Assembly: GCF_004010195.1 (NCBI RefSeq)
Contig: NC_057719.1
Coordinates: 38,970,394-39,034,393 of the forward strand
From: Chiloscyllium plagiosum
Lineage: Eukaryota
Reading direction: 5' to 3'
DNA: 64,000 nucleotides
A program made the position numbers and the translations under genes. Shown piece after piece: positions 1 to 62,053 of this stretch. Positions within the stretch are counted from its first letter, which is position 1; each line of letters begins with the position of its first letter. The notes under the pieces were generated by a model. It had not been told where the DNA came from, did not search any database, and worked only from the letters and a program-made list of their open reading frames with translations.

Positions 1-187
1 CCCCACCCCCACTCTCCTGTAGCTTATCTCTCCACACTTCAGGCTCTCTGCCTTTATTCCTGATGAAGGGCTTTTGCCCGAAACGTCGATTTTACTGCTC
101 CTCGGATGCTGCCTGAACTGCTGTGCTCTTCCAGCATCACTACTCCAGAATCTGGTTTCCAGCATCTGCAGTCATTGTTTTTACCTA
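1..187 (+). mobile_element. Penelope-like element 3' terminal repeat, family A (truncated by window start)
   Basis: Same terminal sequence (ATTCCTGATGAAGGG...CCCGAAAC...GGATGCTGCCTGA...CCAGCA) as the 3' end of the RT+GIY-YIG element at 59752-62053; ends ...TCTGCAGTCATTGTTTTTACCT. Confidence 0.85.
56..91 (+). ncRNA. Minimal type I hammerhead ribozyme motif (PLE family A)
   Basis: CTGATGA(60-66)-A-GGGC TTTT GCCC-GAAA-C-GTC(85-87); intact core, ACGT palindrome in place of stem III, weak stem I. Confidence 0.7.
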
Positions 188-189
188 CT

Positions 190-1370
190 GTTACACATTG
201 TTTTGTATTTTGCAAGCCTGGGCTCATTGAATATTGTCCATGTTCTGCTTATTGTGAACAGCAGAATAATGTCATTGGAACATTGAATGTATGTCGCTGA
301 TATCACACTGGCAGTGAAATTCATTTTACTCAATTTTGTGATAAGCAGTATATGCTGTTTACTTGATGGCAGTATTCTATTTGTGGAAAGTCTCCAATTT
401 CTCTTGCATTTGTAGCAGCCCAAAACAGCTAGTTTTACCAATTGCACAAATGTTTGAGATACTTTACCTTCCAGGGTAATTTGAGACAGACTGGTTGCTT
501 TTTGCCCCATGGTGTTGAGCACTGCAATCATAATAAACATCCTAATTTCTGACTTTATGTTGGAAGGAACATTGTTTTCAAAGCAGATGACAATGGTTGG
601 GCACTCCCCTGATGAACACCTACAGTGTCTGGGGCTGAGATGATTGGCTTCCAACAACCCAACCATATTCCTCAGTGCTAAGTGTGACTCCAACCAATGA
701 AAATCTTCTCCTCTGATTTTCATTAACTTCAGTATTTTTCAAGATTTTTATTGGTGTGTTTTGTCAAATGCTGTCTCATCAATGGTAGTCACTGTCATCT
801 CACCTCTGGAATTGATCTCTCTTGTCCACATTTGGCTCAAGGCTCGAATGAGGTCTGCCACTGTCAACCCATGGTGGACCCTGAATTGAGCATTGGTGAG
901 CAAGTTATTGTTAGTACCAATTGATTGGAGTGGGTGTGCATTTGTCCTGCTTTCTGAGGGTACAACAAACCTGAACTATTTCTCTTGTCAGGTAAACTTT
1001 GGTGTTGTAGCTATAGTGGACAGCTGACAAGGAACTATTTATCTGGAGCATGTATCTGCAGTATTACAGTCAGGTGTTGATAGGGCCTGCAGCCTCTTGC
1101 TGTATCTAGTGGTTTCAGCTGATTCTTTCATTGCTTGAATTGACTGAAGACACACCAGTGATGCCGGTGATCATGGAAGGAGGCTGAGAGAGGTTACTGT
1201 CTCAGTGCTTCTGGCTGAAAACCTGAGACAAATCTTTCAGTCTTGTCTATTGCACTGAGGTAATGGGCTACACCAGTATTGATCATGGGGTGTTGGTGAA
1301 TCACCGCCTTCAAGAGACAGTTGATTAATTGTGCATTAACATTCATGATTAGTTGTGATAGGTCTGCTTT
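190..1370 (-). mobile_element. Degraded CR1/L2-clade LINE ORF2 (RT) fragment
   Basis: ORF 181-723 contains decayed RT-like text (CPTIVICFENNVPSNIKSEIRMF, cf. GPTIFSCFINDLPS..RS..MFADD); similar to 18190-19040. Confidence 0.7.
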
Positions 1371-1444
1371 GGAGGCCTATGCAAAAATAAATGAGTTGTG
1401 ATAGTGCAAGGCACTCAATACTCATATATCATTGTTCGAGATAT

Positions 1445-1806
1445 AATAACACCAAGTGACTTGACAGGACAAATGCTGAAGGGATGTTTCCTCTCATTGA
1501 AGAGTCTAGGATCAGAGGGCATGGTCTTAGAATAAAGGGGCATCAATTTAACACTGAGATTAGGAAGAATGTTTTCTGTCAGATAGTTGTTAGTGTTTGG
1601 AACTCCTTGCCATAGAGAGCTGTGGGGGCCCAGTCCTTGTGTGTTTTTAAGGCCGTGATAGATTCTTGATCAGTCAGAGAATGAAGGGCTATGGAGAACA
1701 GGCAGGAAAATGGACTTGAGGAGTGTTGGATTAGTCACGATCCTATTGAATAGACTTGAGGGTGTAGATAGGGCCTAATCCTGTTCCTAATTCTTATGGT
1801 TTTATG
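1445..1806 (+). mobile_element. CR1 LINE 3' fragment
   Basis: Decayed TRGH..K / R.NFF.QRVV..WN.LP coding region followed by a TTATGG-type tail. Confidence 0.8.
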
Positions 1807-2125
1807 GACCATCAAGCTCAGAGTTGGTAGCCTTTCACCAAAAGTTAATGAATAGCAAAAGCAGAAGTGAACGAAACAACAACCTGTGGATCAAGATTGC
1901 TGTTGGAAGAAGCCCGGGAACAGATGCAAGTTCATTATGCAGCTGATGCCTTATCAGATAACTAAACTATAATCACAGGTAAAGCAGCAGTGATTGAGAA
2001 CTCCTGCTCAAAATGTAGAGCCTTGTCTGATACTCATCTCATCAAATAGACAAGGTGTTCTGAGACCTATTCTTGCACTATTTTTGAACCATCAAATTAA
2101 GTCATTGACTATCAAAACATATTAT

Positions 2126-2442: not shown

Positions 2443-2526
2443 ATGGTTCCACATTGAACAATGATGAGATGTATTGTCATACAAAGCATGACTCCAGACA
2501 GATTTCAAAATGGTTTGGCACTAAGG

Positions 2527-2752
2527 ATAGTGAGGACTGCAGATGCTGGAGATCAGAGCTGAAAATGTGTTGCTGGAAAAGTGCAGCAGGTCAAGCAGCA
2601 TCCAAGGAGCAGGAGAATCAACGTTTCGGGCATGAGCCCTTCTTCAGGAATGAGGAGTTTCTGAAGAAGGGCTCATGCCCGAAACATCGATTCTCCTGCG
2701 CCTTGGATGCTGCCTGACCTGCTGCGCTTTTCCAGCAACACATTTTCAGCTC
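2527..2752. mobile_element. Palindromic PLE family A mini-insertion with two inverted hammerhead motifs
   Basis: ~95 bp inverted arms (2554-2648 / 2660-2753); TSD TGGCACTAAGG at 2516-2526 and 2753-2763; cores at ~2618-2647 (-) and 2661-2688 (+). Confidence 0.85.
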
Positions 2753-4069
2753 TGGCACTAAGGCTAGGCAGCATCTCAAGTTTCATTCTTGCAGCTGCAG
2801 TTACAATGACAATTGATCAGACAGGTAATGACGTAAATGACAACAATATATTTACACGTGAGATTCTTTTCATAACGAAGTGTCACCTGTGCCATCTATG
2901 TGCTTTCAGAAACTTTTCTTTCTCGCTTTCCTTTCACTATGAACACTGTGTAGGGCTATTCCTGGCTATTGGCATTTGACCTGGTGCACAATTAATCTTT
3001 AAGTATGATACCACCAGCAGCAAGTACTGTCAGAGATCACCTGTGAGAGACCACAGATAGAAACCTTCCACAAAACTCTCCAAAATTGCATATGGTAAAA
3101 CTTAGCCCAATGTTTTTCATTTTTCAATGTTGGATTCCTGTTCATTTGGAAATAATTTGTCTCATATGCTTTTCCCATGTCCATTGATCTCTACACAGCA
3201 TAGCAAGTGCATTTAATTCAAAAGTACTTGCTTGTTGTGAGTCCTTAGAATAGCTGCTCCCTAAATATGCTGTCTAATAGCACTGCCATCTGCCAAAAAG
3301 TCCACTTATAAATTCTTAAGCAATTCTTGTAAAGCACTTCTGCTTTAATGTTTGTTTCCAGAAATAGATAAAAAGAAGTCAGCTGACTGAGTATTTTTCT
3401 TTTCCTATTTCCAATTCCACAGCAAGGACAAAAGATACACAAGCCATTGGCAATGCACTGAGGATTCTGATGACAATCATTATTGTCAGTGTAAGAAAAC
3501 ATTTGATGAAAATCAGCAATATCCACATGGTGGTAATATTATCAGTGGTTATATTTCTTGAGATTTCACTGTTTTGGTGTTTAGATGGAACATTATATGT
3601 CAAAAATATATTCTCAAAGAAACGCAAAATAATATGACCATTAAAGCGCACATCATATCTGAAGTTGACAAAATAATAAATGATGTTTAGGCTGTTCAAA
3701 GCTGTGAATATAACTGTTTTCCTAAATCCTTTCATCTTAATAAAGCACCCATTCTTTAAAAGCTTGAATATGTTGATTTCTAAAAATCATAGTCAGGCAA
3801 TTATACATGACATGGAATACGGTATTGTTCTCTTTTGACCTTGAGGATTGTATTTAAAAAGGATTTGCTAATTTGAAATTATCACAGGCCATTAAGAAAT
3901 CTGAGAATTTAAAACAAACACAGGATTAAGCAGAGGTTTCCCTGTACACCGTTAAGACTGAGATTGGAGGAGTGCACCGTCAATCCATTCTCACTACTTG
4001 CCACATAAAATAAAAATACTTTCTCCAATTACCAAGATGACCAAGTAAATCTACATCATCTTTCAAAAC

Positions 4070-8567: not shown

Positions 8568-9004
8568 TTTTAGGAAGACTTGTAGCTCAAGTTGACATTC
8601 TGGATGTAGGTTTGCTCACCGAGCTGGACGGTTCATTTCCAGATGTTTTGTCACCCTACTAGGTAACATCTTCAGTGGGCCTCTGGGCGAAGCACTGCTG
8701 ATAGTTCCTGCTTTCTATTTATATGTTTGAGTTTCTTTGGATTGGTGATGTCATTTCCTGTTCATTTTCTTAGGGGTTGGTAGATGTGTCTAACTCAATG
8801 TGTTTGTTGATAGAGTTCAGGTTGGAATGCCATGCTTCTAAGAACTCTCGTGCGTATCTCTGTTTGGCTTGTCCTAAGATGGATATGTTGTCCCAGTCGA
8901 AGTGGTATCCTTCCTTATCTGTGTGTAACACTGAAGATGTTACCTAGTCGGGAGATGAAACATCTGGAAATGAACCTTCCAACTCAGCGAGCAAGCCTAC
9001 ATGT
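8568..9004. mobile_element. PLE family C remnant: GIY-YIG C-terminus flanked by inverted terminal repeats with decayed hammerhead motifs
   Basis: Minus strand ~8790-8853 reads REFLEAWHSNLNSINKHIEL (PLE endonuclease C-terminus); cores at 8639-8678 (-) and 8931-8967 (+); TSD AGAATTGAAAAC at 8556-8567 and 9005-9016. Confidence 0.8.
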
Positions 9005-9067
9005 AGAATTGAAAACCTCACTCAGATTATAATTTACATTGCCTATTAATTCTCACACAACTAGTCC

Positions 9068-10406: not shown

Positions 10407-10443
10407 CACACTAGCTTTCGGAGCGACGCTCCTTCGTCAGGTG
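10407..10443 (-). ncRNA. Minimal type I hammerhead ribozyme motif (PLE family B)
   Basis: Reverse complement: CAC-CTGACGA-A-GGAGC GTC GCTCC-GAAA-GC-TA-GTG. Confidence 0.75.
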
Positions 10444-10917: not shown

Positions 10918-11079
10918 NNNNNNNNNNNNNNNNNNNNNNNNNNNNNNNNNNNNNNNNNNNNNNNNNNNNNNNNNNNNNNNNNNNNNNNNNNNNNNNNNNN
11001 NNNNNNNNNNNNNNNNNNNNNNNNNNNNNNNNNNNNNNNNNNNNNNNNNNNNNNNNNNNNNNNNNNNNNNNNNNNNNNN
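10918..11079. other. Assembly gap (N run)
   Basis: Run of N characters. Confidence 1.
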
Positions 11080-11095: not shown

Positions 11096-11131
11096 ACACT
11101 AGCTTTCGGAGCGACGCTCCTTCATCAGGTG
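11096..11131 (-). ncRNA. Minimal type I hammerhead ribozyme motif (PLE family B)
   Basis: Reverse complement: CAC-CTGATGA-A-GGAGC GTC GCTCC-GAAA-GC-TA-GTG. Confidence 0.75.
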
Positions 11132-11194
11132 ATTGTGGAGGACTCGATGCAAATTTTTGCTATAAATTCTGTGTTATGATCGAGCCCTCCACAA

Positions 11195-11231
11195 ACACCT
11201 GATGAAGGAGCGTCGCTCCGAAAGCTAGTGT
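11195..11231 (+). ncRNA. Minimal type I hammerhead ribozyme motif (PLE family B), best-formed copy
   Basis: ACAC-CTGATGA-A-GGAGC GTC GCTCC-GAAA-GC-TA-GTGT: 4 bp stem I, 5 bp stem II, AGCT palindrome; predicted cleavage after 11227. Confidence 0.8.
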
Positions 11232-11882
11232 GCTTCCAATTAAACCTGTTGGACTATAACCTGGTGTTGTGTGATTTTTAACTTTGTACACCCCAGCCCA
11301 ACACTGGCATCTCCAAATCATTCCTTTAATAACAGGAGGATGCATGTACCATGCAGTCTGCTAACTGCATTGACATGGCCTGTTGCCCTGTGTAGGGGTT
11401 GTTAGTTTCAGTAAAAAGCAGAAAAGTAAAAACTCAGAGCTACAGGCACTCCAGCTAATGCCACATAAATCAAGTGAGGTGAGTATATATATTCACACCA
11501 AAATACAGAGTACAGCACCAAAATACATTACTATGCAAACTGAGAAATTGGCTCTTTCGGAGGTTAAGGCACAAAGAAACAGAAAGCAGATATCTGATGG
11601 CTTGGGTAATGGTCGTTGTAGCTCGTTCACAATATCAATGGAAGAGGTTTGATGAAACCTCTAACAATCAACACCGCTAAAAGTATTCCTGATTTCTGGA
11701 ATATATAAGCAAACACATTTCAGTAGGTACTTCAAATCAGCAGAGCAGAGAGATGAAAACATGAATTTGTAACAAGAGCTTTTCTCAGCCTCTCAGAAGA
11801 TAGTGAAAAAACAAATTGGAGAAACAAGCATACACTAAGAACTCAAAGATATCTACAAACAATGCCACTACTGATGATACCA

Positions 11883-22452: not shown

Positions 22453-25082
22453 GATTGTATTATAGACCCCCTAATAGTCAGCGGGAAGTTGAGAAACAAA
22501 TTTGTCAGGAGATAGCAGTTATCTGTAAGAACAATAGGGCGGTTATGGTAGGGGATTTTAACCTTCCAAACATAGACTGGGACTGCCATAGTGTTAAGGG
22601 TTTAGATGGAGAGGAATTTGTTAAGCAAATTCAGTATGTGGATGTACCTACTAGAGAAGGTGCAAAACTTGACCTACTCTGGGGAAATAAGGCAGGGCAG
22701 GTGACTGAGGTGTCAGTGGGGGAGCACTTTGGGATCTGCAACCATAATTCTCTCAGTTTTAAAATAGTGCTGGAAAAGGATAGATCAGATCTAAAAGTTG
22801 AAGTTCTAAATTGGAGGAAGGCCTTTGATGGTATTAGGCAAGAACTTTCCAAGGCAGACTGGGGGCAGATGTTCACAGATAAAGGGATGGCTGAAAATGG
22901 GAAGCCGTCAGAAATGAGATTTCAGAGACAGTATATTCCTGTTCGGCTGAAAGGAAAAGCTGGTAGGTGTAGGGAATGCTGGATAACTAAAGAAACTGAG
23001 GGTTTGGCTAAGAAAAAGAAGGACGCATATGTCAGGTACAGACAGGATAGATCGAGTGAATCCTTAGAAGAGTACAAAGGCAGTAGGAGTATACTTAAGA
23101 GGGAAATCAGGAGAGCAAAAAGGGGACATGAGATAACTTTGGCAAATAGAGTTAAGGAGAATCTGAAGGGTTTTTACAAATACGTTAAGGACAAAAGGGT
23201 AACTAGGAAGAGAATAAGGCCCTCAAACATTCATTCCTGATGAAGGGCTTTTGCCCGAAATGTCAATCTTCCTGCTCCTCAGATGCTGCCTGACCTGCTG
23301 TACTTTTCCAGCACCAATCTAATCACCCCCCCCAACCCCAAAAGATCAGCAAGGCGGCCTTTGTGTCTAGCCACAGGAGATGGGGAGATACTAAATGAGT
23401 ATTTTGCATTGGTGTTTAATGTGACGAAGGACATGAAAGATAAAGAATGTACTGAAATAGATGGTGACATCTTGAAAAATGTCCATATTACAGAGGAGGA
23501 AGTGCTGGATGTCTTGAAAAGCATAAAAGTGGATAAATGCGCAGGACCTGATCAGGTGTACCCTCGAGCTCTGTGGGAAGCTAGGGAAGTGATTGCTGGG
23601 CCTCTTACTGAGATATTTGTCTCATCAATAGTAACAGGTGAGGTGCCAGAAGACTGAAGGTTGGTTAACGTGGTGCCACTGTTTAAGAAAGGTGATAAGG
23701 ACAAGCCAAGGAACTATAGACCAGCGAGTCTAATGTCAGTGGTGGGCAAGTTATTGGAGGGAATCCTGAGGGACAGGATGTACATGTATTTGGAAAGGCA
23801 AGGACTGATTAGGGATAGTCAGCAAGGCATGTGCATGGGGAATCATATCTCACAAACTTGATTGAGTGCTTTGAAGAAGTAACAAAGAGGATTGATGAGG
23901 TCAGAGTGGTGGACGTGATATATGTGGACTTCAGTAAGGCGTTTGGCAAGGTTCCCCATGGGAGACTGGTTAGCAAGGTTAGATCTCATGGAATACAGGG
24001 AGAACTAGCCATTTGGCTCAAAGGTAGAAGACACAGAGTGGTGGTGGAGGGATGTTTTTCAGACTGGAGGCCTGTAACCAGTGGAGTGCCGCAAGGATCA
24101 GTGCTGAGTTCACTGCTTTTCATCGCTTATATAAATGACTTGGGTGTGAGCATAAGAGGTACAGTTAGTAAGTTTGCAGATGACACCAAAATTGGAGGTG
24201 TAGTGGACAGTGAAGAGGGTTACCTCAGATTACAACAGGATCTGGACCAGATGGGCCAATGGGCTGAGAAGTGGCAAATGGAGTTTAATTCAGATAAATG
24301 CAAGGTGCTGCATTTTAGGAAAGCAAATCTTAGCAGGACTTATGCACTTAATGGTAAGGTCCTAGGGTGTATTGCTGAACAAAGAGACCTTGGAATGCAG
24401 GCTCATAGCTCATTGAAAGTGGAGTCGCAGGTAGATAGGATAGTGAAGAAGGCGTTTGGTATGCTTTCCTTTATTGGTCCGAGTATTGCATACAGGAGTT
24501 GGGAGGTCATGTTGCGGCTGTGTAGGACGTTGGTTAGGCCACTTTTGGAATATTGCGTGCAATTCTGCTCTCCTTCCTATTGGAAGGATGTTGTGAAATT
24601 TGAAAGGGTTCAGAAAAGATTTACAAGGATGTTGCCAGGGTTGGAGAATTTGAGCAAAAGGGAGAGGTTGAATAGGCTGTGGCTGTTCTCCCTGGAGTGT
24701 TGGAGGCTGAGGGGTGACCTTATACAGGTTTATAAAGTCATGAGGGGCATGGATAGGGTAAATAAACAAGGTCTTTTCCCTGGGGTGGGGGAGTCCAGAA
24801 CTAGAGGACTTAGGTTTATGGTGAGAGAGGAAAGATATAAAAGAGACCTAAGGGGCATCGTTTTCACGCAGAGGGTGGTACATGTGTGGAATGAGCTGCC
24901 AGAGGAACTGGTGAAGGCTCATACAATTGCAACATTTAAAAGGCATCTGGATGGGCATATGAATAGGAAGGGTTTGGGGGGATATGGGCTGGATGCTGGC
25001 ATTGAGTTGGGATATCTAGTCGGGCATATCGAGTTGGACCGAAGGGTCTGTTTCTGTGGCATACATCTCTGTGACTCTATGT
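22453..25082 (+). mobile_element. CR1 LINE ORF2 (partial APE endonuclease plus RT) and 3' UTR; frameshifted
   Basis: YYRPPNS, VGDFNLP, RNYRPASL, GVPQGSVL, SKFADDTK, LEYCVQF, VWNELP; tail CTCTGTGACTCTATG. Confidence 0.97.
23228..23335 (+). mobile_element. PLE family A terminal fragment with hammerhead motif, inserted in CR1 ORF2
   Basis: CTGATGA(23237)AGGGCTTTTGCCCGAAATGTC; the CR1 sequence reads through ..CCTCAAA|GATCAGCAAGG on either side. Confidence 0.85.
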
Positions 25083-25932
25083 GCACAATCACAAACAGGA
25101 ATCTCACTGCAAATATGTAAAACTTCACTTAATTGGAACAACAAAATTGCTATCTAAGAGTCAATGGGGGATCTTAGGCAGCTGAGCCAGGAGTGCTGAC
25201 AGCAGCAGGAGGTATGAGTATCAAGTCTAGCAGGAACAGAGCCAGCAGGAATCCAAGAAATCAGTCTGCGGGCCAGAGGCGGTATGGAGGCTGATTTTGT
25301 TCTTCAGGCTGTCAGTCATCATGCTCAGTAAAGCTGCACTGTCAAAACTACTACCAGATCTAATCCTTCAGTCTTTGGCATGCACCTTCCCCGATGCATG
25401 AAACAAAATAAATAGAACGGGGGAAAGACAATACATTATTTTAAAATACTCAGGAAACTCAAATAGTTTTCACTATCAGCACACAGCTAAAGAGTGATTT
25501 TAATGGGCTAGAATGTGCTGTCAAAATATCAACATGGCTAATGGTACTTTCTTTTATTTACATGCTAATACTGCAGCAATCTCATGAGAGGGGTAGTTGA
25601 ATAATTTATCTCAAATAAGAATGGGAAAGAAAGACTTGTGTTTACATAATAGCTTTTGCAATCTTAGGATCTTAGGATAGTAACGAAAGGGTAACTTATT
25701 ATACAGCACGATTACTCAGCATGGGAAAACACGAGCGCAGGAAGGAGAGGTTTGACAGTCAGTCAGGAAGTTAAGAGATAAATATGAGCGTTAGTAAGGA
25801 GGCACAACAGATAGCACCCCTGTCTAACTGGTACAAAGTCTTCAATACTTGCAAAGTTAAGAAGAAAATGTGAGAAAGGTGGCCTAATTTCCAACCAATT
25901 TCCATTCCCAGCAGGGAACAGGTGACATAGAG

Positions 25933-28900
25933 TTTTTTTTTGTAAATATATTTATTCGCAAAAAAACATTTTTTTGACTTTACAAAAATGTAAAGTTATA
26001 AAAAAAAGAAGAATGCAAATTACAATGCAACTACTATCTACTAACTACTAACCTAACCTATAAAACAAAACAAAATGAAACATTGTACAAAACAACACCA
26101 ATAAATAAGTAAATGACTGAAAAACAAAACAGAAGAACACGTAAGAACACAGAATAACAATGCTCAGCGCAAAGCTGTCAAGTAAAAAATGGGGAACATT
26201 TCATATATATACTCGTATTCACTCAGGAGTCCCCCTTTCCAGGGCTCAGCACACCTAATCATCCTGGTTAAACGAACACCCGAGTTAAGAATAGCAGACA
26301 AATCTATGTCCAAATAACTCAAAAAGGGCTGTTCATGTCTTATAAAAAAGGTTTGTTGTGTGGTGCACCATATTCGTGAAAAGATCCAAGAGAATGTGCT
26401 CCACAATTAATTTTCGCCATCCCAGCAAGCCTGGCAGGTTCTCAGACACCCAATTCATCAGAATATTCTTTCATGCACGGTAAGAATATTGAATAGTTTC
26501 TTCCCATGCCCGTCGAAAGATTATAAATTCAGTAAACCTCGAAGGAGAGATGTTGGGTCTACCTTAGCTTCAATCCTCAATATCCTCACTATCTTTGCCG
26601 CCACAGTGCTCCAAAAAGCATGGAGCCTTTGGTATATCCAGAAGCAATGGGTATGAGTACCTACAGTTATTTTATATTTGGGGCACATTGGAGACTTTTT
26701 AAAACTTCACCAGACGGTCCGATGCCAAATGAACCCGTGCAGAACTTTTATCTGCATTGTGTATGCCAAATTATAGATTGAGATCTTTTGTGTGTTCTTC
26801 CATACGTCCTCTCATGTTTCAGAAGAGATCTCCACTCCTAGTTGTTGCTCCCAAAGTTCACATAGCCAGTTAATATCCTGCCAGGCCCTACCACCCAGTA
26901 GGCGATAGAGGGCAATAACCGACAGGGTGCTTGTAGCACGTAGCAACAACCTTTCTATATCAGGCTTATAGGGCTTAGTAAGAAGCATAGTCTTCTTCTA
27001 GATGAAATCCCTAACCTGAAAAAAATTGAAAAAATCTCTACCGGGCAGTCCGTATTTGCGGCTCAATTGCTCAAAGGATATCATAACCCCCTCAAACAAG
27101 TCTCCCAAACTAGAAATTCCTCTCGCTGCCCATTGTTTGAACCCTGAGTCCATCATCCCTGGTCAGAATCCAGGCATACCAACTATGGAAGTAAATCGTG
27201 AAGTCATAGATAAGCAACTCTCACTCTGACGCATTGCCCTCCATGCCTTGACCACACTAATAAAAATGGGGTTCCGGCAATGGTCCATAACTGTCCTCAT
27301 CTTATCCATAAACAACAGGTTAATAAGAGGCCACTTTGCCTGGGAAGCCTCGATATCCAGCCATATGGAGTCTGGATTATTACCTGCCCAATCGGATTGA
27401 TTTCCCATACATCAGGAGATATCAATTGAGTTCCATGCCTCCCATCTCTGTAGATCACGCCTAATATTGTCGAGCAGGTGAGCAAAATTAGTCCAAAATA
27501 ACCGATCAAACATGGGAGTAATAAAAATACCTAAATATCGAAAACCCACCCGTGACCACTTAAAGGGGAACCTAGGGCCACTTTCAACCTCTGACACTTC
27601 CTTAAGGTCCCTCAAAAGCATAGCCTCCGACTTTGCAAAGTTGTTCTTATATCCAGAAAAAGCCCCAAATGAATTAATACGTTGTATCAGATGGGGTATG
27701 GAGGTCATCGTGTCTGATAAAAATAAAAGGATGTCATGCGCGTATAGTATAATCTTGTGTACCCTCAATCCCACTTACGGAGCAGTTATGTGGATGCTCT
27801 GAGGAATGGCCTCTGCCAGTGTTTCTATCACCAACGTAAACAACAACAGTGAAAGGGGGCAGCCTTGACAAGTACCCCTGCCAATCCTAAAATTCCCAGA
27901 CTTCACCCCATTGGTGATGACCGCGACCAGAGGGTGGTGATATAAAACGTCCACCCATCTAGCAAAGACTCCACCCAACGCAAACCGCTCTAAGACATAA
28001 AAGAGATACAGCCATTCCACCTGGTCAAATGCTTTCTCTGCATTTAAGGAAATCACCAATCCCTGGATCGATCATTGCTGACATACTTGGACCATATTCA
28101 GCAACCTTCTAATATTATTAGAGGACCTACGACCCCTTATAAAACCTGTCTGGTACTCTTTGACAATATAGGGCAACACCTTCTCCAATCTCAGCATCAA
28201 AATCTTAGACAGAATCTTAAAGTCTGAATTTAATAGAGAGATGGGCCAATATGAAGCACAATACCCAGAAACCTTCCCCTTCTTAAAAATGAGCGAAATA
28301 TTAGGTTCTTTCAAAGAGGGTGGTAAGCATTCATGCATCTAGGGGTGACTGTACATTTTCAGCATCGGCCCTGACAGAATCCCTCTAAACTCCTTATAAA
28401 ACTCACCCCGGAGACCATCAAGGCCAGGTGCTTTCCCACTCTGAAGTTGCCTATCTGCCTCCTGTATTTCCTGAGCTGTCAAGGAGGCATTAAGAAGACT
28501 TGGCTTGTTCCAGGATTACCCCCAGGAGGTCCAGGCTCTTAAAAAAGGTTTCTATCTTTCTAACTACAAATGACCATTGCTACCAAAAAACTACAAAGAA
28601 AACCAACTGTAAAACCTTGAACAGGAGACTCTCCCCTCCCCTGCCCATAGTGGGCACTCACCCTGCCCCACCCTCCCTTCCCCCTCTCCACCTTCACAAT
28701 TCCTTCAAGCCCGGACTGCGCCCCAGCCTTATGCAAAAATAAATAAGTAAACAAGAAGATGATCCTTAAATCAACAAAAGAAGACAGACAGGATAAGCAC
28801 TCCACCTATCCCCAGCTCCACATCAGCCCTAATTATGACTAAAAAAAACGAACAAAAAAAGGGGAAAACAACAAACAGCACCCATTAAATTTCCCATGAT

Positions 28901-30063
28901 AAAATCCAGTCATAAAAAGTATTATAGAAACAACATATTCTAAGACTTTTTTCCCCTTAAAATATTTATTAGGGAGAGAGGAAAAACAAAAGAAAGGGAA
29001 GGGGAAAACATGGGGAAAGAAGGAAAAGAAGACAAACAATAACCATATTCTTCAAATCAGTTGGTCATTTTTAGAGTGTTCACAAAGTTCTTGGCTTTAT
29101 CCGCCGAGTCAAACATATAAACCGAATCCTCATTGCTGAAACAGAGCACCGCTGGGTATCTCATGGAGTCCTGTATGCCCAGGTTCTTCAGCCTCTTCTT
29201 AACTTCATCGAAGGACTTCCTCTTTTGGATTACAGTGCTGAGAAATCTTGGAAGAACATAATTTTTGACCCCTTGTGCAACAGTGTCTGTGGATGTTTCC
29301 TCAGTGATCTGGAGACTTCTATCACTTTTTGTTTGTCCTTGTATGATTGGAAGCGCACTAGGACCGGGCGAGGGCGCTGTACTAGTCCGGACCTGCGCAC
29401 CGCGACCCGATAGGCCCTTTCAATCTGCAGCCAGCCAGACTTGATTTGAAGACCCAGGAACTACGGCAGCCAGTTTTCAAAGAAGCTGACTGGCTGCCCA
29501 CCTTCTTCACCCTCCAAGAGCCCGACAATCCGCAGATTCGTCCTCCGATCTCAATTTTCGAGGTCGTCGACTTGATCTCGCAAGGCCCACACTTGCTGCT
29601 CCAGACCCGGACGAGGCCTTGATCGCCACTTGCTCCTCCATCCGCACCCTGAGGCCCTGGAGCTCCTGTTCATGCTTTTGTAGTATGAACACGATAGCGT
29701 GGAGCTGGGCACAAATCTCCTTGAACACAGCCTCAACCTTCGTGGTAAGTCTTGCCATCACCACTGCCAATTCTTGCGGGTCCGTGAAGTTCCTTGAGGG
29801 TTCAGGAGAGGCCGCTGCTGTGAACTCTGGTATATCCGGTGCTGCAGCGGAGTGTCCTCCCTGCTGCTATTTGCTCGCTCCCTTTCCCTTTGGTATCCTT
29901 TGCACTCCAGAGTTTGAAGAAATATATATTCTCAAAATTTTAAATTAATAATTCTTTCATAGAAGTTAGCCAGGGAAAGCAAAAAACCACTAATATGTCT
30001 TGGCTGTTAGGCAGAGCTATCCACGGCAGTTCTAATGAATCGCTGCCATCTTGCCAAGTCCTT
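25933..30063 (-). mobile_element. L1-clade LINE with 5' end, ORF1, internally deleted ORF2 and poly(A)
   Basis: 5' GGCAAGATGGCAGC (~30056); ORF1 motif DQVDDLEN and decayed LRIVGL.EG; ORF2 motifs YWPISLLNSDFKILSK, SLNAEKAFDQVEW, GTCQGCPLS, LYAHDILL; AATAAA plus A tail at ~25933-25956; decayed TSD GTGA...AGTTT at 25922-25935 and 30064-30077. Confidence 0.93.
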
Positions 30064-42473: not shown

Positions 42474-42690
42474 TCGAGGAGAAAGTGAGGTCTGCAGATG
42501 CTGGAGATCAAAGTTGAAACTTTATTGCTGGAACAGCACAGCAGGTCAGGCAGCATCCAGGGAACAGGAGATTTGACGTTTCGGGCACAGGCCCTTCTTC
42601 CTGAAGAAGGGCCTGTGCCCGAAACGTCGAATCTCCTGTTCCCTGGATGCTGCCTGACCTGCTGTGCTGTTCCAGCAATAAAGTTTCAAC
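42474..42690. mobile_element. Palindromic PLE family A mini-insertion with a central hammerhead motif
   Basis: 89 bp arms 42512-42600 / 42603-42691 with one mismatch; TSD TGCAAAAGACATCT at 42460-42473 and 42691-42704. Confidence 0.92.
42598..42632 (+). ncRNA. Minimal type I hammerhead ribozyme motif (PLE family A)
   Basis: TTC-CTGAAGA-A-GGGC CTGT GCCC-GAAA-C-GTC-GAA; predicted cleavage after 42628. Confidence 0.72.
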
Positions 42691-42714
42691 TGCAAAAGAC
42701 ATCTACCTTGGGTC

Positions 42715-43800
42715 AAGTGAAACTGTGGAGGGTACAGCAAACAATTATAATGTGGGATACTGGGACAGTTTACTGCTTGACCAGTCCAACCATCTGAATC
42801 TCATCTTTGAGAAGCCTATGATTTGTTCTATAATGGCCTTTGCAGAGGCATGTGCAGTGTTGTACTTCTCCTTGGTGTCAGTCTGTGGATTTCTTAGCGA
42901 TGTCATCAGGCAGATTTTGAGGAGATAGTCCTTGTCACTGTTCAGCCATCTCTGTATGAACCAAAGGGGATTGAAAAATGAGGTGTTTAGAATGTAGGCA
43001 TCAGGATAGCTCCGTGTATAATATGTGCAAATCTGGGTGGTGTGTCACAGAAGATGTGCAAATTCACAGAGTAGGGGCCTTTCCTCTTCATGAAGACTCT
43101 TGGTTATTGCTAAAGTGCTCTGACAACTATGTCAGCACAATAAATTGCTTCCCAGACATGTGGAAAATCTTTAGTGGCAGTAAAGCCAACTGCCCTGGTT
43201 GCCTGATTCACATCCAAGGTAAGGTAATAAATTAATGAGCCTCAGCAGACAGCATCAATCCCTCCCTGCATATATTTACAATTGGATGTCTGTGAGATTC
43301 TATAGAGATCTCCAGTAGTTTCCTGAAAATTTTCATTATATTTCCTTCTTCTAATGTCTTACAGCATCTATTGTTGTCAGGTTTAACTTATAAAAGGGGC
43401 TATTGATCTTCTTTGGGAGAAAGCAAGGACTGCAGATGCTGGAGATCAGAGTTGAGACTGTGGTGCTGGAAAAGCTCAGCGGGTCAGGAGCATCCGAGGA
43501 GCAGGAGAATCAAAGTTTTAGGCATACACCCTCATGAAGGATTGTGCCCAAAACGTCGATTCTCCTGCTCCTTGGATGCTGCCTGACTCGCTGTGCTTTT
43601 CCAGCAACACAGTCTCGACTATCAATCTTCTTTGTCAATTTATTTGCTAACTGAGGGCTGTTATCACCTTCAGGAAACCAGATTGGGATTGCCTCCAAAA
43701 CAATAAGTCTACTAGAACAGCTAATAGTTGTAGGAGACAACTTTCCAGAGATCCAGAGGCATCCTCAGTGCTGCCTCACAGTCATCTGTATCGACCTATA
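42715..43800 (-). pseudogene. PIF/Harbinger transposase pseudogene, interrupted at ~43330-43648
   Basis: Minus strand KVITALS, FQETTGDLYRISQTS, FPHVWEAIYC, FMKRKGPYSVNL..CD, WLNSDKDYLL..LMTSLRNPQT..EKYNTAHASAKAIIEQIIG..KMRFRWLD. Confidence 0.85.
43416..43620. mobile_element. Older palindromic PLE family A mini-insertion
   Basis: Inverted arms ~43449-43530 / 43535-43620 folding at TCATGA in a decayed core; TSD-like CTATTGATCTTCTTTG (43400-43415) versus CTATCAATCTTCTTTG (43619-43634). Confidence 0.85.
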
Positions 43801-45829: not shown

Positions 45830-46020
45830 CATGATGTGGAGGTGCCAGTGTTGGACTGGGGTGGACAAAGTTAAAAATCACATAACACTAGGTTATAGTC
45901 CAACAGGATTATTTCGAAGTATAAGCTTTCGGAGCGCTGCTCCTTTGTCAGGTAGCTAGTGGGCAGGATCATAGGACACAGAATTTATAGTAAAAGATCA
46001 AAGTATCATACAACTGATGA
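45830..46020 (-). mobile_element. PLE family B terminal repeat with a mutated hammerhead core
   Basis: Reverse complement CTGACAAAGGAGCAGCGCTCCGAAAGCTT (G8 changed to A). Confidence 0.85.
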
Positions 46021-46024
46021 GACG

Positions 46025-46445
46025 TGAGGAGAAAGTGAGGTCTGCAGATGCATCGGCCTCCGAAATCAGTCTGGCGCCATTACACACGCGGCCGCTACAT
46101 CGCCCGCGGCAATAGTCTCCACCGCTGCCGACGATGATGTCACTTCCGCCCCCACCGACCTCGCAGCCTCCGCGATCGCCGCCCAGACAACCGCCTCCAC
46201 GATCGCCATGAAGACAATCGCCGACAGATTCGCGACCTCCGTTGCTATGGGGAATAACTCTGTCTCTGTGGTCACCGCAGCCACTTCCGCCCCCAGTGAC
46301 GTTACTAACCTACATGCCCACAACGCCGCATGTGTCTCCGCCCCCACGCCGATCTCCGTCACCATGCCTAACCCCGCCCCCCAGCCGAGTTCCGTCACAC
46401 CTAACCCCGCCCCCACGACGATCTCCGTCACCACGCCTATTGCCC
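46025..46445. mobile_element. PLE family A terminus (inverted) joined to a CpG-rich Thr/Ala/Pro-coding segment
   Basis: Starts GAGGAGAAAGTGAGGTCTGCAGATGC, as at 42476; followed by an undecayed GC-rich repeat (CACTTCCGCCCCCA, CCTAACCCCGCCCCC). Confidence 0.6.
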
Positions 46446-47029
46446 AGATTGTTTAGTAGGTCTCCTGCAACTGCTGGCTTTATCAAATACCCTTTCTCGA
46501 CTTTCCAGCCTCTATCAATGGCTTTGGTGTGTACTACTCGCGGCACTAGGTCTTCAATCCTAGGTCACCATTATGGCAATGTGCTCCAATTTTTGGGTGC
46601 TGTCCTTCTTTATCTCTCGCTACCAGCTCACAGCAGTTGGCATACATGATCCAATTCCTCTTCCTAGTTCTCTTGCACAGAGGATTTGCACTGGCATCTC
46701 AGAGTGCACTGGTGAAGACTGTTAAGATTGTGAAGAGATAAAAGTGCTGATAAAAGTCTTAAGCTGTAAGGGTTAATCTTAGATGAAATCTGGGACTCCT
46801 TGTCTGCAATTTAGCATTTTACTTCAAGTTACTGTGTTAAATCTAAAGTTTTTTTTAGAAGTTTAGGGGCAGAACCAAGCGAGCAAATTATGGCCTCTGC
46901 AAAGCAGGTGAGAGGAGTATAATAAGTAACTTTTTTTTTCTAGTTGGCTGGTTACAATTAAACAAGAGAGACGAGGGTTATTGTAGTATGTTGGTAGTAT
47001 CCCAACTTATGTTTCACCTAGAGGATGCT

Positions 47030-49339: not shown

Positions 49340-49501
49340 TTTTAGCTTAGCCTGCTGGACACACTTTCCTCATTCCTGAAGAAGGGCTTATGCCCGAAAC
49401 ATCGATTCTCCTGTTCCCTGGATGCTGCCTGACCTGCTGCGCTGTTCCAGCAACACATTTTCAGCTCTGATCTCCAGCATCTGCAGACCTCACTTTCTCC
49501 T
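49340..49501 (+). mobile_element. PLE family A terminal repeat with hammerhead motif
   Basis: CTGAAGA(49376)AGGGCTTATGCCCGAAACATC; ends GCAGACCTCACTTTCTCC. Confidence 0.88.
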
Positions 49502-49778: not shown

Positions 49779-50825
49779 AGTGAGAGAGAGAGAATGTGTG
49801 TGTGCATGCACGTTTGATAGAGTGAGTGTGCAAGAATGACAGAGTATATGCCTGTGAGAGGATGTGCGCGTGAGTATGGGTGTGTCTCTCTGAGTGAACG
49901 TGTGTATGAGAGGGGTGTGTATGTGTGAGTGTGAGTGTGTGTGTGCAAGTGTGTGAGAGTTTCTAGTGTAGTTCCCTCCCAGGTGGGGAACACTTCAACG
50001 GTCAAGGACATTTGGTCTTGGATCTTCAGGTGACCGCCCTCCAAGGCAGACTTCAAAGGCTGACAGCCAAGTTCAGTACCCGTGAGGATAGCTTCAACCG
50101 GGATCTTGGGTTAATGTCACACTATAGGTGACCCCACTGCACTATACACTCTCTGACACACAAGCATACACACACACACTCTTACACATGATCGCATTTA
50201 CACAGACCCTCTCTCATACATACACATACCCTCTCACAGGCATATACTCTGTCACACACATATACTCTGTCACACATACACACTCTTTATCAAGCATGTA
50301 CACACTCTCACTCCCACACACATGCATGCATACAATTATAAGTCTATGGGGTGAATTTGCACTTGCAGATACATTCTATTTTGTTCAAAAAGCACACAAT
50401 CTGTAGACAGTCAGTCCATGTGACATTTGATCAATTCCTACCTTGGGAATAGAATCAGTCTGATTCAAGATAGGGATAGACAGACTCTAACCTGTAATGT
50501 ATTGTATGAGCTGAAATGTCACCCTTTTTTTCAATAAAGCCTTACATTATCTCAAGGCTGTGACTTGAAAGAAGTTCTGGGATTGGGTACACATTAATGA
50601 ATCGAAACCTGCAACTCCATTCTAAGCGACTGAAGACTTAACAGCAATCTAGGTTTGACCAATACATTGCATCAGTTGTAGGACACTTTGATCTGTTACT
50701 GTAAATTTTGTGTCCTATGATCCTGCCCCACTAGGTAGCTGATAAAGGAGCAGCACTCCGAAAACTTATATTTCCAAATAAGCTTGTTGGAATATAACCT
50801 GGTATTGTGTAATTTTGTTACTTTG
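49505..50825. mobile_element. PLE family B 3' region with GIY-YIG C-terminus, CA-rich UTR and a large inversion
   Basis: ~49975-50130 (+) reads GEHFNGQGH..DLQVT..FNRDLGLMSHYR*; 49540-49930 is an inverted copy of ~50150-50495; decayed core CTGATAAAGGAGC at 50739. Confidence 0.85.
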
Positions 50826-52907: not shown

Positions 52908-53014
52908 TGATGAGGAGGAGCCGGTGTTGGACTCGGTGGACAAGGTCAGATAACACACAACACAAGATTATAGTCCTGTTGGACTATAACCTGGTGTCGT
53001 ATGATTTTTAATTT
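52908..53014. mobile_element. Short inverted PLE family B terminus lacking the hammerhead
   Basis: TTATAGTCC-TGTT-GGACTATAA fold-back with flanks matching 11250-11320. Confidence 0.7.
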
Positions 53015-53029
53015 ACCATCTACCAGGCC

Positions 53030-57759: not shown

Positions 57760-57886
57760 GGTCCTGAAGAAGGATTACACCTAAAACATCGACTTCTCTA
57801 CCTCCTGATGCTGCCTGGCCTGCTATGTTCTTCTCGCCTCCTGCCTGTCTATTTTGGATTTCAGCATCTGCAGTTTTCTTATCTCA
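57760..57886 (+). mobile_element. Old PLE family A terminal repeat with a decayed hammerhead
   Basis: CTGAAGA(57764)AGGATTACACCTAAAACATCG..GATGCTGCCTG..CAGCATCTGCAG. Confidence 0.7.
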
Positions 57887-58084: not shown

Positions 58085-58182
58085 ACCTGTCCAGACACAT
58101 TATGACATATGTCTGAAGCAGGTGGGACTCAAACCAAGATCTTCTGACCCAGCGGTTGGGATACTAACACTTTGCCACAATA
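58085..58182 (-). mobile_element. Short tRNA-derived SINE fragment
   Basis: Reverse complement TTGTGGCAAAGTGTTAGTATCCC..GGTTTGAGTCCCACCTG (A and B boxes). Confidence 0.6.
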
Positions 58183-58239
58183 CCGCCAACACAATTTATA
58201 TCTTCCATTATGACAAGGAGAGCCAAGGAGCTTTGCCAA

Positions 58240-58710
58240 TGGGGTTCTCCACCATTGCTGACTTCCTATAGGTGTAGGCACAATTGACTACACCCAAATT
58301 GTTCTCAGAATGCCCAAATTACCAAACTGCGGAGTCCAGCAACAGGAAAAGCTTCTATTCCATCAATACTCAAATTATTTGTGACCATCAGTGGTAGATT
58401 TTGGACATATGCGCCAGATAATCTGGGAGCTACCATTATGCATGTATTCTACATATTCCTTTCCAAGTCCTTGTGTCTCAGGAATGGCTATTGGGAGACA
58501 AGTGGTACACCCTCTAAACATGGCTGATGACCCATTTATGTAATCCTCAGACTGACACTTAATGGAGATACAACACTGCCCACAATCCCACCTAAGTCAT
58601 TGTGGAATGGACTAAAGGCCTCCCTAAGATGAGATTCCAATGTCTGAACTGCACTAATACCTAGAAATGCTTTGCTGCATCATTATGACAAGCTGTGCAA
58701 TTCACTACAG
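58240..58710 (+). pseudogene. PIF/Harbinger transposase pseudogene
   Basis: GTIDYTQI, NRKSFYSINTQIICDH, WLLGDKWY, WLMTP, RYNTAH, VIVE..KMRFQCL, with stops and frameshifts. Confidence 0.88.
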
Positions 58711-59751
58711 AAGCTGACAAAGGAAGGTTATTTCCTCAATGCAGAAGAAATGTGGCTTAATAGAAATTTTCTAACAATGGAGATGAGGATATTGACTGAG
58801 AGGGAAATCCAAGAGACCAAGACAGTGTTATGAACTGTTCAGCATGAGAAGTCTGACAGAACCAAATTTAAAACTGTTTCCAAGATGAATGAGCTTCGTT
58901 TCAAATTCACTTAGTTACATAACGTTCTGTTGGTTATATTGCCTATAGGTCCTGGTCCTCAGTAAGTTTTATGTTCCTTAACCTCCCACTCAATATAAGT
59001 GTAGTCCAAACGTCCACAGATGAGGTGCTCTATATTTGGACCTGTTGGCCTAGAAGACTCAACTGGTTGTCCTAAGGAGTGGTTTAGCCTAGAAAACTCA
59101 GGCCTGCTAAGAAGCTCCTGTCCAGATACATGCTTGCCTTTTGTAGGCTTTAACATCATTTGTAAGAGGGAGGTGAACAGGCCAAACACCTCTGGTATGT
59201 GCTGATAGGAAGCTTCTAGAAGCCTCTGTATGTGACTCCTCCTCCCTACGGGTGCCTACTGACATTAGTTTATCTCTGAGAGGAAGGGGAATCTGGAGAT
59301 CCCACTTCCCACTCTCATCTTGCCATTGATGCTGAGCATCTGTTACTATAGTGATGGAGTGCAGGTTTGTGTGTATATATCCAGCAGACACAGAGTACTG
59401 GATATGTGTTTCAATGGTGGTAACCAGACTCCCAACATTCCAGAGCCAGCACGGCACTGTTAACATCGGTTGATAACATTATACTTCAATCAGCCTAATG
59501 AGTGCCTCAACCAAACCTGCCTGCTGCTCCTGTTCCCCTCTGTACATTTTGATGAAATCATTAACTGCCCAACCAAGAGGTCAAAGACTGTGTGGGCCTG
59601 AGGAGGTAACTGGGCTCCTGAGGTTCCCTGACTGCCCAACACCTGGGCATTTCTTACTCAACCAGCTGTAGAAATTGTCAAAGATGCATTCAACAGATTA
59701 ATAAAGAAATGATGGCCTAGTGGTATTATCGCTAGAGTATTAATCCAGAGA

Positions 59752-62053
59752 CGAGATTAGAGTGGTGCTAGAAAAGCACAGCAGGTCAGGCAGCAAGCAA
59801 GGAGCAGGAAAATCAACGGTTCGGGCAGGAGCCCTTCATCAGGAATGAGGCTGGAAGCCTCGGGGATGGAGAGATAAATGGGAGGGGGTGAGGCTGAGGA
59901 GAAGGTAGTTGAGAGTGCAATAGGTGGATGGAGGAAGCGGTAAATGTTGGAGAGGAGGGTGGAGCAGAAGGTGGGACAGGCCATGAGGATGGTGCTGAGC
60001 TGGAAGTTTGGAACTGGGATAAGGTGAAGGGAGGGGAAATGCGGAAACTAGTGAAGTCCACATTGATGCGCTGCGGTTGAAGGGTTCCGAGGCGGAAGAT
60101 GAGGCATTCTTCCTCCAGGCGTCGGGTGGTTGAGGGAGTGGCGGTGGAGGAGGCCCAGGACCTGCATGTCCTTGGCAGAGTGGGAGGGGGAGTCGAAATG
60201 TTTGGCCACAGGGCGGTGAAGTCGATTGGTACGGGTGTCCCAAAGATGTTCCCTGAAGCGCTCTGCGAGAAGGCGTCCAGTCTCCCCAATGTAAGAGACC
60301 ACATTGGGAGCAACGAATACAATAAATGACATTGGTGGAAGTGCAGTTGAAACATTGATGGCCTCTTTTGGGGTCTTGGATGGAGGTGACGGGGGAAGTG
60401 TGGGTGCAGGTTTTGCAATTCCTGCGGTGGCAGGGCAAGGTGTAAGGAGGGAGGGTGGGTTGTTGGGGGGCATGGACCTGACCAGGTAGTCACGGAGGGA
60501 ATGGTCTTTGAGGAAAGCGGATAGGGGTGGGGAGAGAAATTTATCCCTGGTGATGGGGTCCGTTTGTAGGTGGCAGAAATATCAGCGGATAATGTGGTTT
60601 ATGTGGAGGTTGGTGGGGTGGACGGTGAGGACCAGGGGGCGTTCTGTCCTGGTTGCAGTTGGAGGGGTGGGGTTTGAGGGCAGAGGTGTGGGATGTGGAT
60701 GAGATGCATTGGAGGGCATCTTCAACCACATGGGAGGGGAAATTACGGTCTTTAAAGAACACATCTGGTGTGTTCTGTGGTGGAACCGGTCCTCCTGGGA
60801 GCAGATACTGCGGAGGCGGAGGAATTAGGAGTACAGGATAGCATTTCTGCAGGAGGTAGGGTGGGAAGAGGTGTAATCCAGGTAGCTGTGGGAGTTGGTG
60901 GGTTTGTAAAAAATCGACGTTCATCAGGAATAAAGGCAGAGAGTCTAGAGAGAGGAGGCATCAAGGCTTCAAGGCAGGCATCCTTGCAAGAGGATTCGCA
61001 GTAGGGTTAAATCAACTAGGTAAAAACAATGACTGCAGATGCTGGAAACCAGATTCTGGTTTCCAGCATCTGCAGTCATTGTTTTTACCGGGTTTGTAAA
61101 AAATGTCAGTGTTGAGTCGGTCGTCATTGATCGAGATGGAGAGGTCCAGAAAGGGGAGGGATGTGTCAGAGATGGTCCATGTGAATTTAAGGTCAGGGTG
61201 GAATGTGTTGGTGAAGTTGATGAACTGCTCAACCTCCTCGCGGGAGCACGAGGTATCGCCGATGCAGTCATCAATGTAGCGGATGAAGAGGTGGGGAGTG
61301 GTGCCAGTGTAACTACGGAAGATGGACTGTTCTATGTAGCCGACAAAGAGACAGGCATTGCTGGGGCCCATACGGGTGCCCATGGCTACCCCTTTGGTCT
61401 GGAGGAAATGAGAGGATTCTAAAGAGAAATTGTTGAGGGTGAGGACCAGTTCAGCCAAACAAATTAGAGTGTCAGTGGAAGGGTACTGTTGGGGACGTCG
61501 GGAGAGGAAGAAACGGAGGGGTTAGAGGCCCTGGTAATGGCAGATGGAGGTGTAGAGGGATTGGATCTCCATGATGAGGATGAGGCATTGGGGGCCGGGG
61601 AAATACAAGTCTCGGAGGAGGTGGAGAGCATGGGTGGTGTCCCAAACGTATGTGGGAAGTTCCTGGACTTGGGGGATAGGACAGTATCGAGGTAGGAGAG
61701 GAGTTCGGTGGGGCAGAAACAGGCTGAGACGATGGGTCAGCTGGGGTGATTAGACTTGTGGATCTTGGGAAGGAGGTAGAATCGGGCGGTGCAGGGTTCC
61801 AAAACTATGAGGTTGGAAGCTGTCGGTGGGAGATCTCCTGAGGTGATGAGATTGCGTATGGTCTGGAAAATGATGGTTTGATGGGGTGTGAGGTCATGGT
61901 TGAGGGGGCGGTATGAGGAGGTGTCTTCGAGTTGGTGCCTGGCTTCAGCAGTGTAGAGGTCGGTGCGCCAAACTACCACTTCACCCCCTTTGTCTGTTGG
62001 TTTGATGGTGAGGTTGGGATTGGTTCCGCTGGTTTGATGGCGAGGTTGGGATT
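59752..62053 (-). mobile_element. Penelope-like retroelement family A (RT plus GIY-YIG endonuclease), 5' truncated and frameshifted
   Basis: IKPTDKGG, RFYLLPKIHK, QTKGVAMGTRMGPS, RYIDD, LPFLDL; NVIYCIRC..YIGETGR..ERFREH; 3' repeat with hammerhead motif at ~59812-59842 (GAAA mutated to GAAC). Confidence 0.95.
60915..61089. mobile_element. Young PLE family A mini-insertion nested in the PLE RT gene, with a perfect 35 bp hairpin
   Basis: TSD GGGTTTGTAAAAAAT at 60900-60914 and 61090-61104; hairpin 61019-61053 / 61055-61089. Confidence 0.92.

What the first reader, a model, noticed from the sequence alone, without database searches (positions are those of the whole stretch)
56..59842. Three Penelope-like families each carry their own minimal, probably dimer-dependent hammerhead ribozyme (about 15 motifs in 64 kb)
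Seen: family A CTGAwGA-A-GGGC nnnn GCCC-GAAA-CGTC (60, 2647-, 2661, 23237, 42601, 49376, 59842-, decayed at 43530 and 57764). Family B CAC-CTGAyGA-A-GGAGC nnn GCTCC-GAAA-GCTA-GTG (10440-, 11128-, 11199, decayed at 45950- and 50739). Family C CCA-CTGAAGA-T-GTTACC..GGTGAC-(G)AAA-C(G)TC-TGG (8675-, 8931). Stem II and flanks differ between families while the core is constant. All have one extra nucleotide after A9 and replace stem III with a 4 nt palindrome (ACGU or AGCU). Established: PLE terminal repeats in many eukaryotes carry minimal type I hammerheads thought to cleave as dimers. Inference: these are shark representatives, and the different palindromes could restrict dimerisation between families (B versus A/C).
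Basis: partly seen in the sequence, partly recalled or inferred. Interest (0 to 1): 0.75.

Follow-up and report, generated by a model that had tools for sequence, protein, structure and literature searches.

The report
Shark Penelope-element minimal hammerhead ribozymes
The motifs are real copies of the stripped-down self-cutting "hammerhead" RNA already described at the ends of Penelope-like jumping genes, here in three such families with tens of thousands of copies; most scattered copies are likely inert leftovers made from uncut RNA, and the three families are predicted to be unable to form working mixed pairs.

Summary
All 16 listed motifs are present (12 insertions; 6 of 16 fully intact); 9 descriptor hits versus 0.15 by chance. 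Exact patterns match 64,742 (A), 12,463 (B) and 2,256 (C) places genome-wide. Each family is tied to its own Penelope-like ORF: A and B Neptune-type, C Poseidon-type (by motifs). The extra nucleotide and the palindrome are the defining traits of the minimal hammerhead of Cervera and De la Pena 2014, so the kind is known, and this scan has reported it many times on other DNA (80 notes). Corrections: stem I also separates A from C, so the predicted partition is A|B|C, not B versus A/C; close neighbours mostly lie on opposite strands and cannot pair in cis. Additions: copies' 5' ends pile up about 30 nt behind a TATA(-like) box in all three families, not at the cut site (likely transcription start, uncut template); family B RNA is polyadenylated between the cut site and the copies' 3' ends; in C the extra U is part of an in-frame AUG. 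Cleavage itself could not be tested.

The parts
60..87 (+). Family A (A1) minimal hammerhead, C3 to H17, intact; pLTR remnant about 1-185
2526..2754 (.). Fold-back family A (A2) mini-insert with two opposite-strand motifs: 2620-2647 (-, intact, H17=U) and 2661-2688 (+, palindrome CpG-decayed); about 10 bp target duplication
8578..9009 (.). Fold-back family C insert: motifs 8642-8675 (-) and 8931-8964 (+), both damaged; the - arm carries the C-terminus of a Poseidon-type GIY-YIG ORF and a TATA box 48 nt before C3
10355..11319 (.). One family B insertion (12 bp target duplication read by eye) holding three intact motifs, 10412-10440 (-), 11100-11128 (-), 11199-11227 (+), a SINE piece and an assembly gap (10918-11079)
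11161..11166 (+). TATA box of family B pLTR, 38 nt before C3 (inferred promoter)
11239..11244 (+). Poly(A) hexamer of family B, just after the predicted cut; used in family B RNA reads (not shown for this copy)
23237..23264 (+). Family A motif, palindrome and stem I decayed, inserted in a LINE
42477..42691 (.). Fold-back family A (A3) mini-insert: intact motif 42601-42628 (+) and a truncated opposite arm; about 14 bp target duplication
43416..43620 (.). Old fold-back family A mini-insert, both motifs decayed (43531 +, 43539 -)
45923..45951 (-). Older family B motif, G8>A
49376..49403 (+). Family A (A2) motif, palindrome CpG-decayed
50739..50767 (+). Older family B motif, decayed
57764..57790 (+). 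Decayed motif of an A-related lineage (G) with different stems I and II
59815..59842 (-). Family A motif (A15.1>C) in the 3' pLTR of the broken Penelope-like element upstream
59900..62114 (-). Broken Neptune-type Penelope-like ORF: RT (YIDD), CX4CX2C linker, GIY-YIG endonuclease; interrupted by a second family A insert near 60913-61090

Best explanation
The motifs are minimal type I hammerheads in the pseudo-LTRs of three Penelope-like retrotransposon families, which likely cut only when two same-family copies on one tandem transcript pair up, while the scattered genomic copies are likely inert leftovers made from uncut RNA. Shown: each family's pLTR has the order TATA(-like) box, hammerhead, two clustered 3' ends, and follows its own RT/GIY-YIG ORF. 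Inferred: transcription starts about 30 nt after the TATA box (4, about 8 and about 17 nt before C3 in A, B, C), so a transcript from a partial-tandem element would carry one hammerhead at each end; the two would form the double hammerhead (stem III from the two palindromes, stem I swapped between copies), likely with protein help as shown for the anole element, releasing a unit-length RNA that could be circularised. Reverse transcription that starts 55-90 nt after the cut site on an uncut linear RNA would run off at the start site and give the abundant mini-inserts and fold-back pairs. Stem III and stem I sequences together are predicted to bar working mixed dimers between A, B and C.
For: Motif far above chance and at 64,742 / 12,463 / 2,256 exact places, reversed controls 0. 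ORF linkage: A in the window; C pLTR downstream of a Poseidon-type RT on the same strand in 36 of 44 loci, two fetched twice (counted by hand); B motif 394-658 nt after a GIY-YIG C-terminus in at least 10 of 20 loci (output partly cut), 31% identical to A's endonuclease region. Nine invariant columns of 49 across 11 lineage copies, all core or G10.1. Stem I covariation: C pair 2.3-1.3 U-A 97, C-G 45 of 163 copies; B C-G 97, U-G 28, U-A 10 of 154; a lineage with U3-A8 core swap, 5 of 6 copies. 5' ends of solo copies: A 43 of 126 in 6 nt (9.5% per nt versus 0.85%), B 28 of 82 in 12 nt (4.2% versus 0.51%), C 7 of 75 in 7 nt (1.6% versus 0.24%), each about 30 nt behind the TATA(-like) box although the distance to the ribozyme differs. 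No excess at the cut site in A (6 of 232, p 0.54) or B (3 of 170, p 0.61). Published: dimeric, weak cleavage (PMC4209133), protein-assisted cleavage and uncut RNA as main substrate (PMC11167929).
Against: No cleavage is shown for any of these motifs. RNA reads of family B cross the predicted cut without a pile-up of ends. The active dimer is never the minimum-energy fold; it lies 1-26 kcal/mol above two monomers in 11 of 11 homodimers. The two most numerous A subfamilies have a U-U mismatch at stem I pair 3 (154 of 258 copies). No intact full-length tandem element with two same-strand motifs was isolated. PMC11167929 found ribozyme mutants did not affect insertion in vitro; PMC2377424 reports a TATA-less internal promoter for Drosophila Penelope, unlike the TATA reading here. 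Peak windows were chosen after seeing the histograms, so the p-values are descriptive.
Confidence: 0.7

Rival explanations
1. The fold is kept for a non-catalytic role (protein binding, promoter or start-codon overlap) or simply rides along, and cleavage is dispensable for these elements.
For: Copies and RNA reads are mostly uncut; weak stem I in A1/A2; in C the motif overlaps the stop of one ORF and the AUG of the next; insertion in vitro does not need cleavage (PMC11167929); PMC8557442 notes that PLE clades without hammerheads proliferate well.
Against: All catalytic positions are kept across Neptune- and Poseidon-type lineages, with a compensated U3-A8 swap and compensated stem I changes; such precision points to selection on catalysis.
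Confidence: 0.2
2. One reading: the palindrome alone sorts dimer partners, so A and C RNAs could cleave each other while B is excluded.
For: A, C and four further lineages share ACGU, B has AGCU; A x B allows only 2 of 4 stem III pairs.
Against: A x C has no pair at stem I position 1 in either direction, so no three-way junction would form; a two-state palindrome (only self-complementary options) needs no selection for sorting to explain it.
Confidence: 0.06
3. 5' ends cluster at the motif because reverse transcriptase or repair stalls at the RNA structure, not because transcription starts there.
For: In A the peak lies on stem I's 5' strand, and fold-back junctions are also raised inside the motif.
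Against: The peak tracks the TATA box (about +30) in three families and lies about 17 nt outside the motif in C; a stall would be expected at the 3' side of a hairpin (general knowledge). The C peak rests on few copies.
Confidence: 0.1
4. The motifs are chance look-alikes in repeats.
For: No Rfam hammerhead match.
Against: same position in three unrelated pLTRs; published class.
Confidence: 0.01

Closest known systems
[quoted passage not shown]
   Same: Type I core without helix III loop, extra nucleotide between 9 and 10.1, G10.1-C11.1, palindromic 15.2-16.2, several families per genome, mostly solo copies, opposite-strand pairs 100-700 bp apart, U3-A8 variant.
   Different: Cartilaginous fish are not named in the parts read or in 2 of 3 supplement files searched; copy numbers here are about ten times those quoted for coelacanth and frog; stems I and II are shorter in A (2-4 bp, 4 bp).
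Poseidon element of the green anole (PAc), Frangieh et al. 2024, PMC11167929 (parts 1-2 of 4 read)
   Same: [quoted passage not shown]
   Different: Here also two Neptune-type families; TATA-linked 5' end peaks and a used poly(A) site are not described in the parts read.
Small dimer-cleaving PLE hammerheads, Lunse et al. (not held; seen only as cited in PMC6765202 passages)
   Same: Palindromic stem III, cleavage as dimers.
   Different: Could not check whether it covers sharks or cross-family dimers.
Non-LTR retrozymes (PMC7229834 passages; bioRxiv 10.64898/2026.07.22.740005 parts 1-2 of 5 and passages)
   Same: Type I hammerheads, PLE-related, reported in one cartilaginous fish; circles after double cleavage.
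   Different: Retrozymes are short head-to-tail arrays; these copies are dispersed or fold-back pLTR stumps of coding PLEs.

Membership tests
Metazoan PLE min-HHR | Core CUGANGA...GAAA...UH around stem II | tested here: met
   (family level; 6 of 16 window copies fully intact)
Metazoan PLE min-HHR | One extra nucleotide between 9 and 10.1; G10.1-C11.1 | tested here: met
   A in 244 of 258 A and 148 of 154 B copies, U in 153 of 163 C copies
Metazoan PLE min-HHR | Palindromic 15.1-16.1, no loop III | tested here: met
   CG or its CpG-decay forms in 243 of 258 A and 154 of 163 C; GC in 141 of 154 B
Metazoan PLE min-HHR | Located in the pLTR of a PLE | tested here: met
Metazoan PLE min-HHR | Self-cleavage as dimer, not as monomer | not testable with these tools
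   Indirect only: no excess of DNA or RNA ends at the cut
Rfam hammerhead families | Covariance-model match | tested here: not met
   No hammerhead among 17 matches at E<=5; expected if the models need stem III (inference)
Neptune clade PLE (A, B) | C-terminal GIY-YIG with CX2-5CxxC linker (PMC8557442 passages) | tested here: met
   Pfam GIY-YIG hit for A only, below cut-off
Neptune clade PLE (A, B) | RT phylogeny with named references | not tested
   No named reference set at hand; B's RT core was not recovered
Penelope/Poseidon clade PLE (C) | RT plus GIY-YIG without linker zinc finger; ORF start at stem II | tested here: met
   AUG in 13 of 13 ungapped copies, that frame open in 7 of 13, other frames in 0; weak match to an ORF N-terminus in one locus
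Non-LTR retrozyme | Short head-to-tail arrays with a ribozyme per unit | tested here: not met
   No such array in the window; same-family neighbours within 300 nt are on opposite strands in 45 of 49 A, B, C cases

The most novel reading that the evidence does not exclude
The pLTR is built like a retroviral U3-R-U5 with the hammerhead as R: promoter before it and, in family B, a used poly(A) site between the cut and the reverse-transcription start sites. A normal polyadenylated B transcript then holds those start sites only at its 5' end and can template only mini-inserts, so every long copy would need double-hammerhead cleavage plus circularisation (or a strand jump across the hammerhead). Stem III plus stem I would act as an address code that keeps co-resident Penelope families from cutting each other. 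This would give the PLE hammerhead a required, testable role.
Probability: 0.2. Interest if true: 0.65.

Novelty: new member of a known kind. Interest (0 to 1): 0.33.

Why it matters
The kind is known, and the role of PLE hammerheads is still open (PMC8557442 passage). This genome offers tens of thousands of copies from three families, which lets template RNA ends be read from DNA: they point to TATA-driven starts just before the ribozyme and to uncut templates. Family B's poly(A) site turns the circle-versus-read-through question into a direct experiment. Three mutually incompatible natural dimer ribozymes may also be useful as orthogonal parts if they cleave.

Tried and rejected
Rfam scan: no hammerhead. 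A first fuzzy search timed out and was redone. Cut-site footprint: not seen in A or B; C 3 of 107 (p 0.04) is two arms of one insert plus one internal deletion, so rejected; a footprint of a few percent cannot be excluded at this sample size. Cap-derived G before the 5' peak: A solo 8 of 22 versus 14 of 50 controls, B 4 of 6 versus 8 of 36, C 2 of 6 versus 4 of 26; inconclusive. Peak as an artefact of unknown subfamily flanks: 0 shared flanks among 43 A and 1 pair (same locus) among 30 B peak copies. Rows dropped before the end counts: copies next to N (14 A, 4 B) and ends more than 8 nt after the cut (26 A, 3 B, 1 C; mostly other lineages). I first took the RT piece upstream of young B copies for B's own ORF; it is a dead A-type piece with shared stops. 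Dimer energies were not used to rank partners, since A x C scores well only because no junction closes. Run search: no RNA holder listed on record; X20 laid no reads. Families A and C showed no poly(A) tails or end pile-ups in X19. A first frame test for C matched nothing and was corrected. Paper searches for shark plus Penelope plus hammerhead ribozyme (1 hit, shark only as a simile), for heterodimer plus palindrome (0) and for pLTR promoter/poly(A) terms (10 hits, none on this by listing) found no shark report; the library lacks most subscription papers, Repbase and Dfam.
Full report
Observation. All 16 listed positions hold the motif. A descriptor requiring the core, a stem II of at least 4 pairs and UH gives 9 hits in the window and 0.15 on average in 100 Markov shuffles. 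Six of 16 are intact throughout; the rest show CpG decay of the palindrome or core changes, and both family C copies are damaged. The 16 belong to 12 insertions, several being fold-back pairs with 10-14 bp target duplications (duplications read by eye). Exact patterns match 64,742 (A), 12,463 (B) and 2,256 (C) places in a 3.56 Gb genome, reversed controls 0; these are lower bounds because decayed copies are missed. Rfam has no matching hammerhead model.

What the families are. A: the motif at 59842- ends a broken minus-strand ORF with RT, a CX4CX2C linker and GIY-YIG. B: a different GIY-YIG C-terminus with the same linker lies 394-658 nt upstream of the motif in at least 10 of 20 loci and is 31% identical to A's over 123 residues. 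C: the pLTR lies on the RT's strand downstream of it in 36 of 44 loci; its endonuclease lacks the linker. By the clade criteria in PMC8557442 (passages) A and B are Neptune-type and C is Poseidon-type; no tree with named references was built. In C the ORF stops inside the ribozyme (core UGA or loop II UAG, by subfamily) and A9, the extra U and G10.1 form an AUG, present in 13 of 13 ungapped copies, whose frame is open in 7 of 13 while the other two are open in none. It matches an ORF N-terminus weakly in one locus and parallels the anole element.

Conservation. Across 11 real copies from different lineages the 9 invariant columns of 49 are core positions and G10.1 (the 3' part of the B rows is out of register by one). 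Stem I covaries: C pair 2.3-1.3 is U-A in 97 and C-G in 45 of 163 copies; B is C-G 97, U-G 28, U-A 10 of 154 (these reflect a few subfamily events, and young B2 copies are under-sampled). Four further A-related lineages (26, 8, 6, 7 copies) have other 4-bp stems I, one with the U3-A8 swap. Against activity: A1/A2 have a U-U mismatch in stem I (154 of 258), and the active dimer is never the lowest-energy fold.

Dimer logic. In a double hammerhead stem III and both stems I are formed between the copies. With real copies, A x B allows 2 of 4 stem III pairs; A x C allows 4 of 4 but no pair at stem I position 1 either way; B x C fails both. The predicted partition is three-way. Whether this was selected or is drift is unknown. 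Same-family neighbours within 300 nt lie on opposite strands in 45 of 49 cases in 114 long loci (some are overlapping fold-back junctions), so one transcript would carry one sense motif and its antisense; these pairs are not ribozyme dimers.

Template RNA read from copy ends. Copies were collected by a downstream anchor from 1.88 Mb of fetched loci, leaving out loci chosen for that family's ribozyme (272 A, 177 B, 108 C), and 5' ends mapped against long copies. Solo ends peak at 3-4 nt before C3 in A, 0-11 nt in B, 15-21 nt in C, at 6-11 times background per base. TATA(-like) boxes start 35-37, 38-39 and 47-48 nt before C3, and A has an initiator-like motif at -4 (promoter consensus recalled). 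The offset from TATA is about 30 nt in all three while the offset from the ribozyme differs, which favours a transcription start. Ends at the cut site are not enriched (A 6 of 232, B 3 of 170). The loci come mostly from contig C1 and are not a random sample.

RNA. In one poly(A) single-cell run with the same species label as the best holder (2% read), 2,467 reads lay on a B copy; 751 carry A tails at two sites 29 and 32 nt after the cut, behind a hexamer; depth is continuous across the cut and no end pile-up is listed. AATAAA or ATTAAA is present in 212 of 240 B copies. Genomic B copies end mainly 50-60 or 85-90 nt after the cut and none of 183 has an A tail, so their templates ran past the poly(A) site. 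The reads may come from host transcripts ending in B inserts; one sample only. A and C showed no tails.

Mechanism. Shown: anatomy, linkage, covariation, end positions, B polyadenylation. Inferred: start sites, double-hammerhead cleavage between the two pLTRs of one transcript, protein help, circles, family exclusivity. Mini-inserts are best read as run-off copies of the uncut RNA 5' end. Long copies need read-through, a circle or a strand jump; the data do not decide.

Known work. PMC4209133 already lists the extra nucleotide, the palindrome, multiple families, opposite-strand pairs and weak dimeric cleavage. PMC11167929 shows protein-assisted cleavage that is not needed for insertion in vitro. 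PMC2377424 (passages) places the Drosophila start in the pLTR but calls the promoter TATA-less. The 2026 preprint reports PLE-related retrozymes in one cartilaginous fish; its supplements are closed and may name these families. Lunse et al. was not held. Earlier notes of this scan (80 findings) describe the same class in this and other genomes.

Verdict. Real, well supported, and a new member of a known kind. The three-family TATA alignment and B's poly(A) position are the useful additions. Interest 0.33.

Noticed in passing
L152 (G000:C32) and L153 (G000:C87883); also L151, L154-L156, L091-L120: A young family B derivative carries at least 5.5 kb of host repeats and a dead A-type RT piece with shared stop codons fused to B's 3' UTR; copies are 98-99.8% identical, 5'-truncated, with different flanks; only two reach 5.5 kb. 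Looks like PLE-mediated capture of upstream DNA; source locus not found.
   Followed up: partly
L242, L322, L312: A-related lineage F with the U3-A8 core swap in 5 of 6 copies and self-complementary stem I strands.
   Followed up: partly
window 60913-61090: A second family A insert inside the RT of the Neptune-type element: a perfect hairpin of the A1 tail (61017-61089) and a motif lacking stem II.
   Followed up: no
window 52975-53015: Family B tail without ribozyme.
   Followed up: no
L091:1960-1980: Family B inserts supply a used poly(A) site; with at least 32,790 exact tail copies they may end host transcripts.
   Followed up: partly
window 22455-25120, 27412-29419, 30633-31919: Broken LINE ORFs (RT and endonuclease hits); one is interrupted by the family A insert at 23237.
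   Followed up: no
window 46028-46649: GC-rich degenerate 27-33 nt tandem repeats with open low-complexity frames.
   Followed up: no
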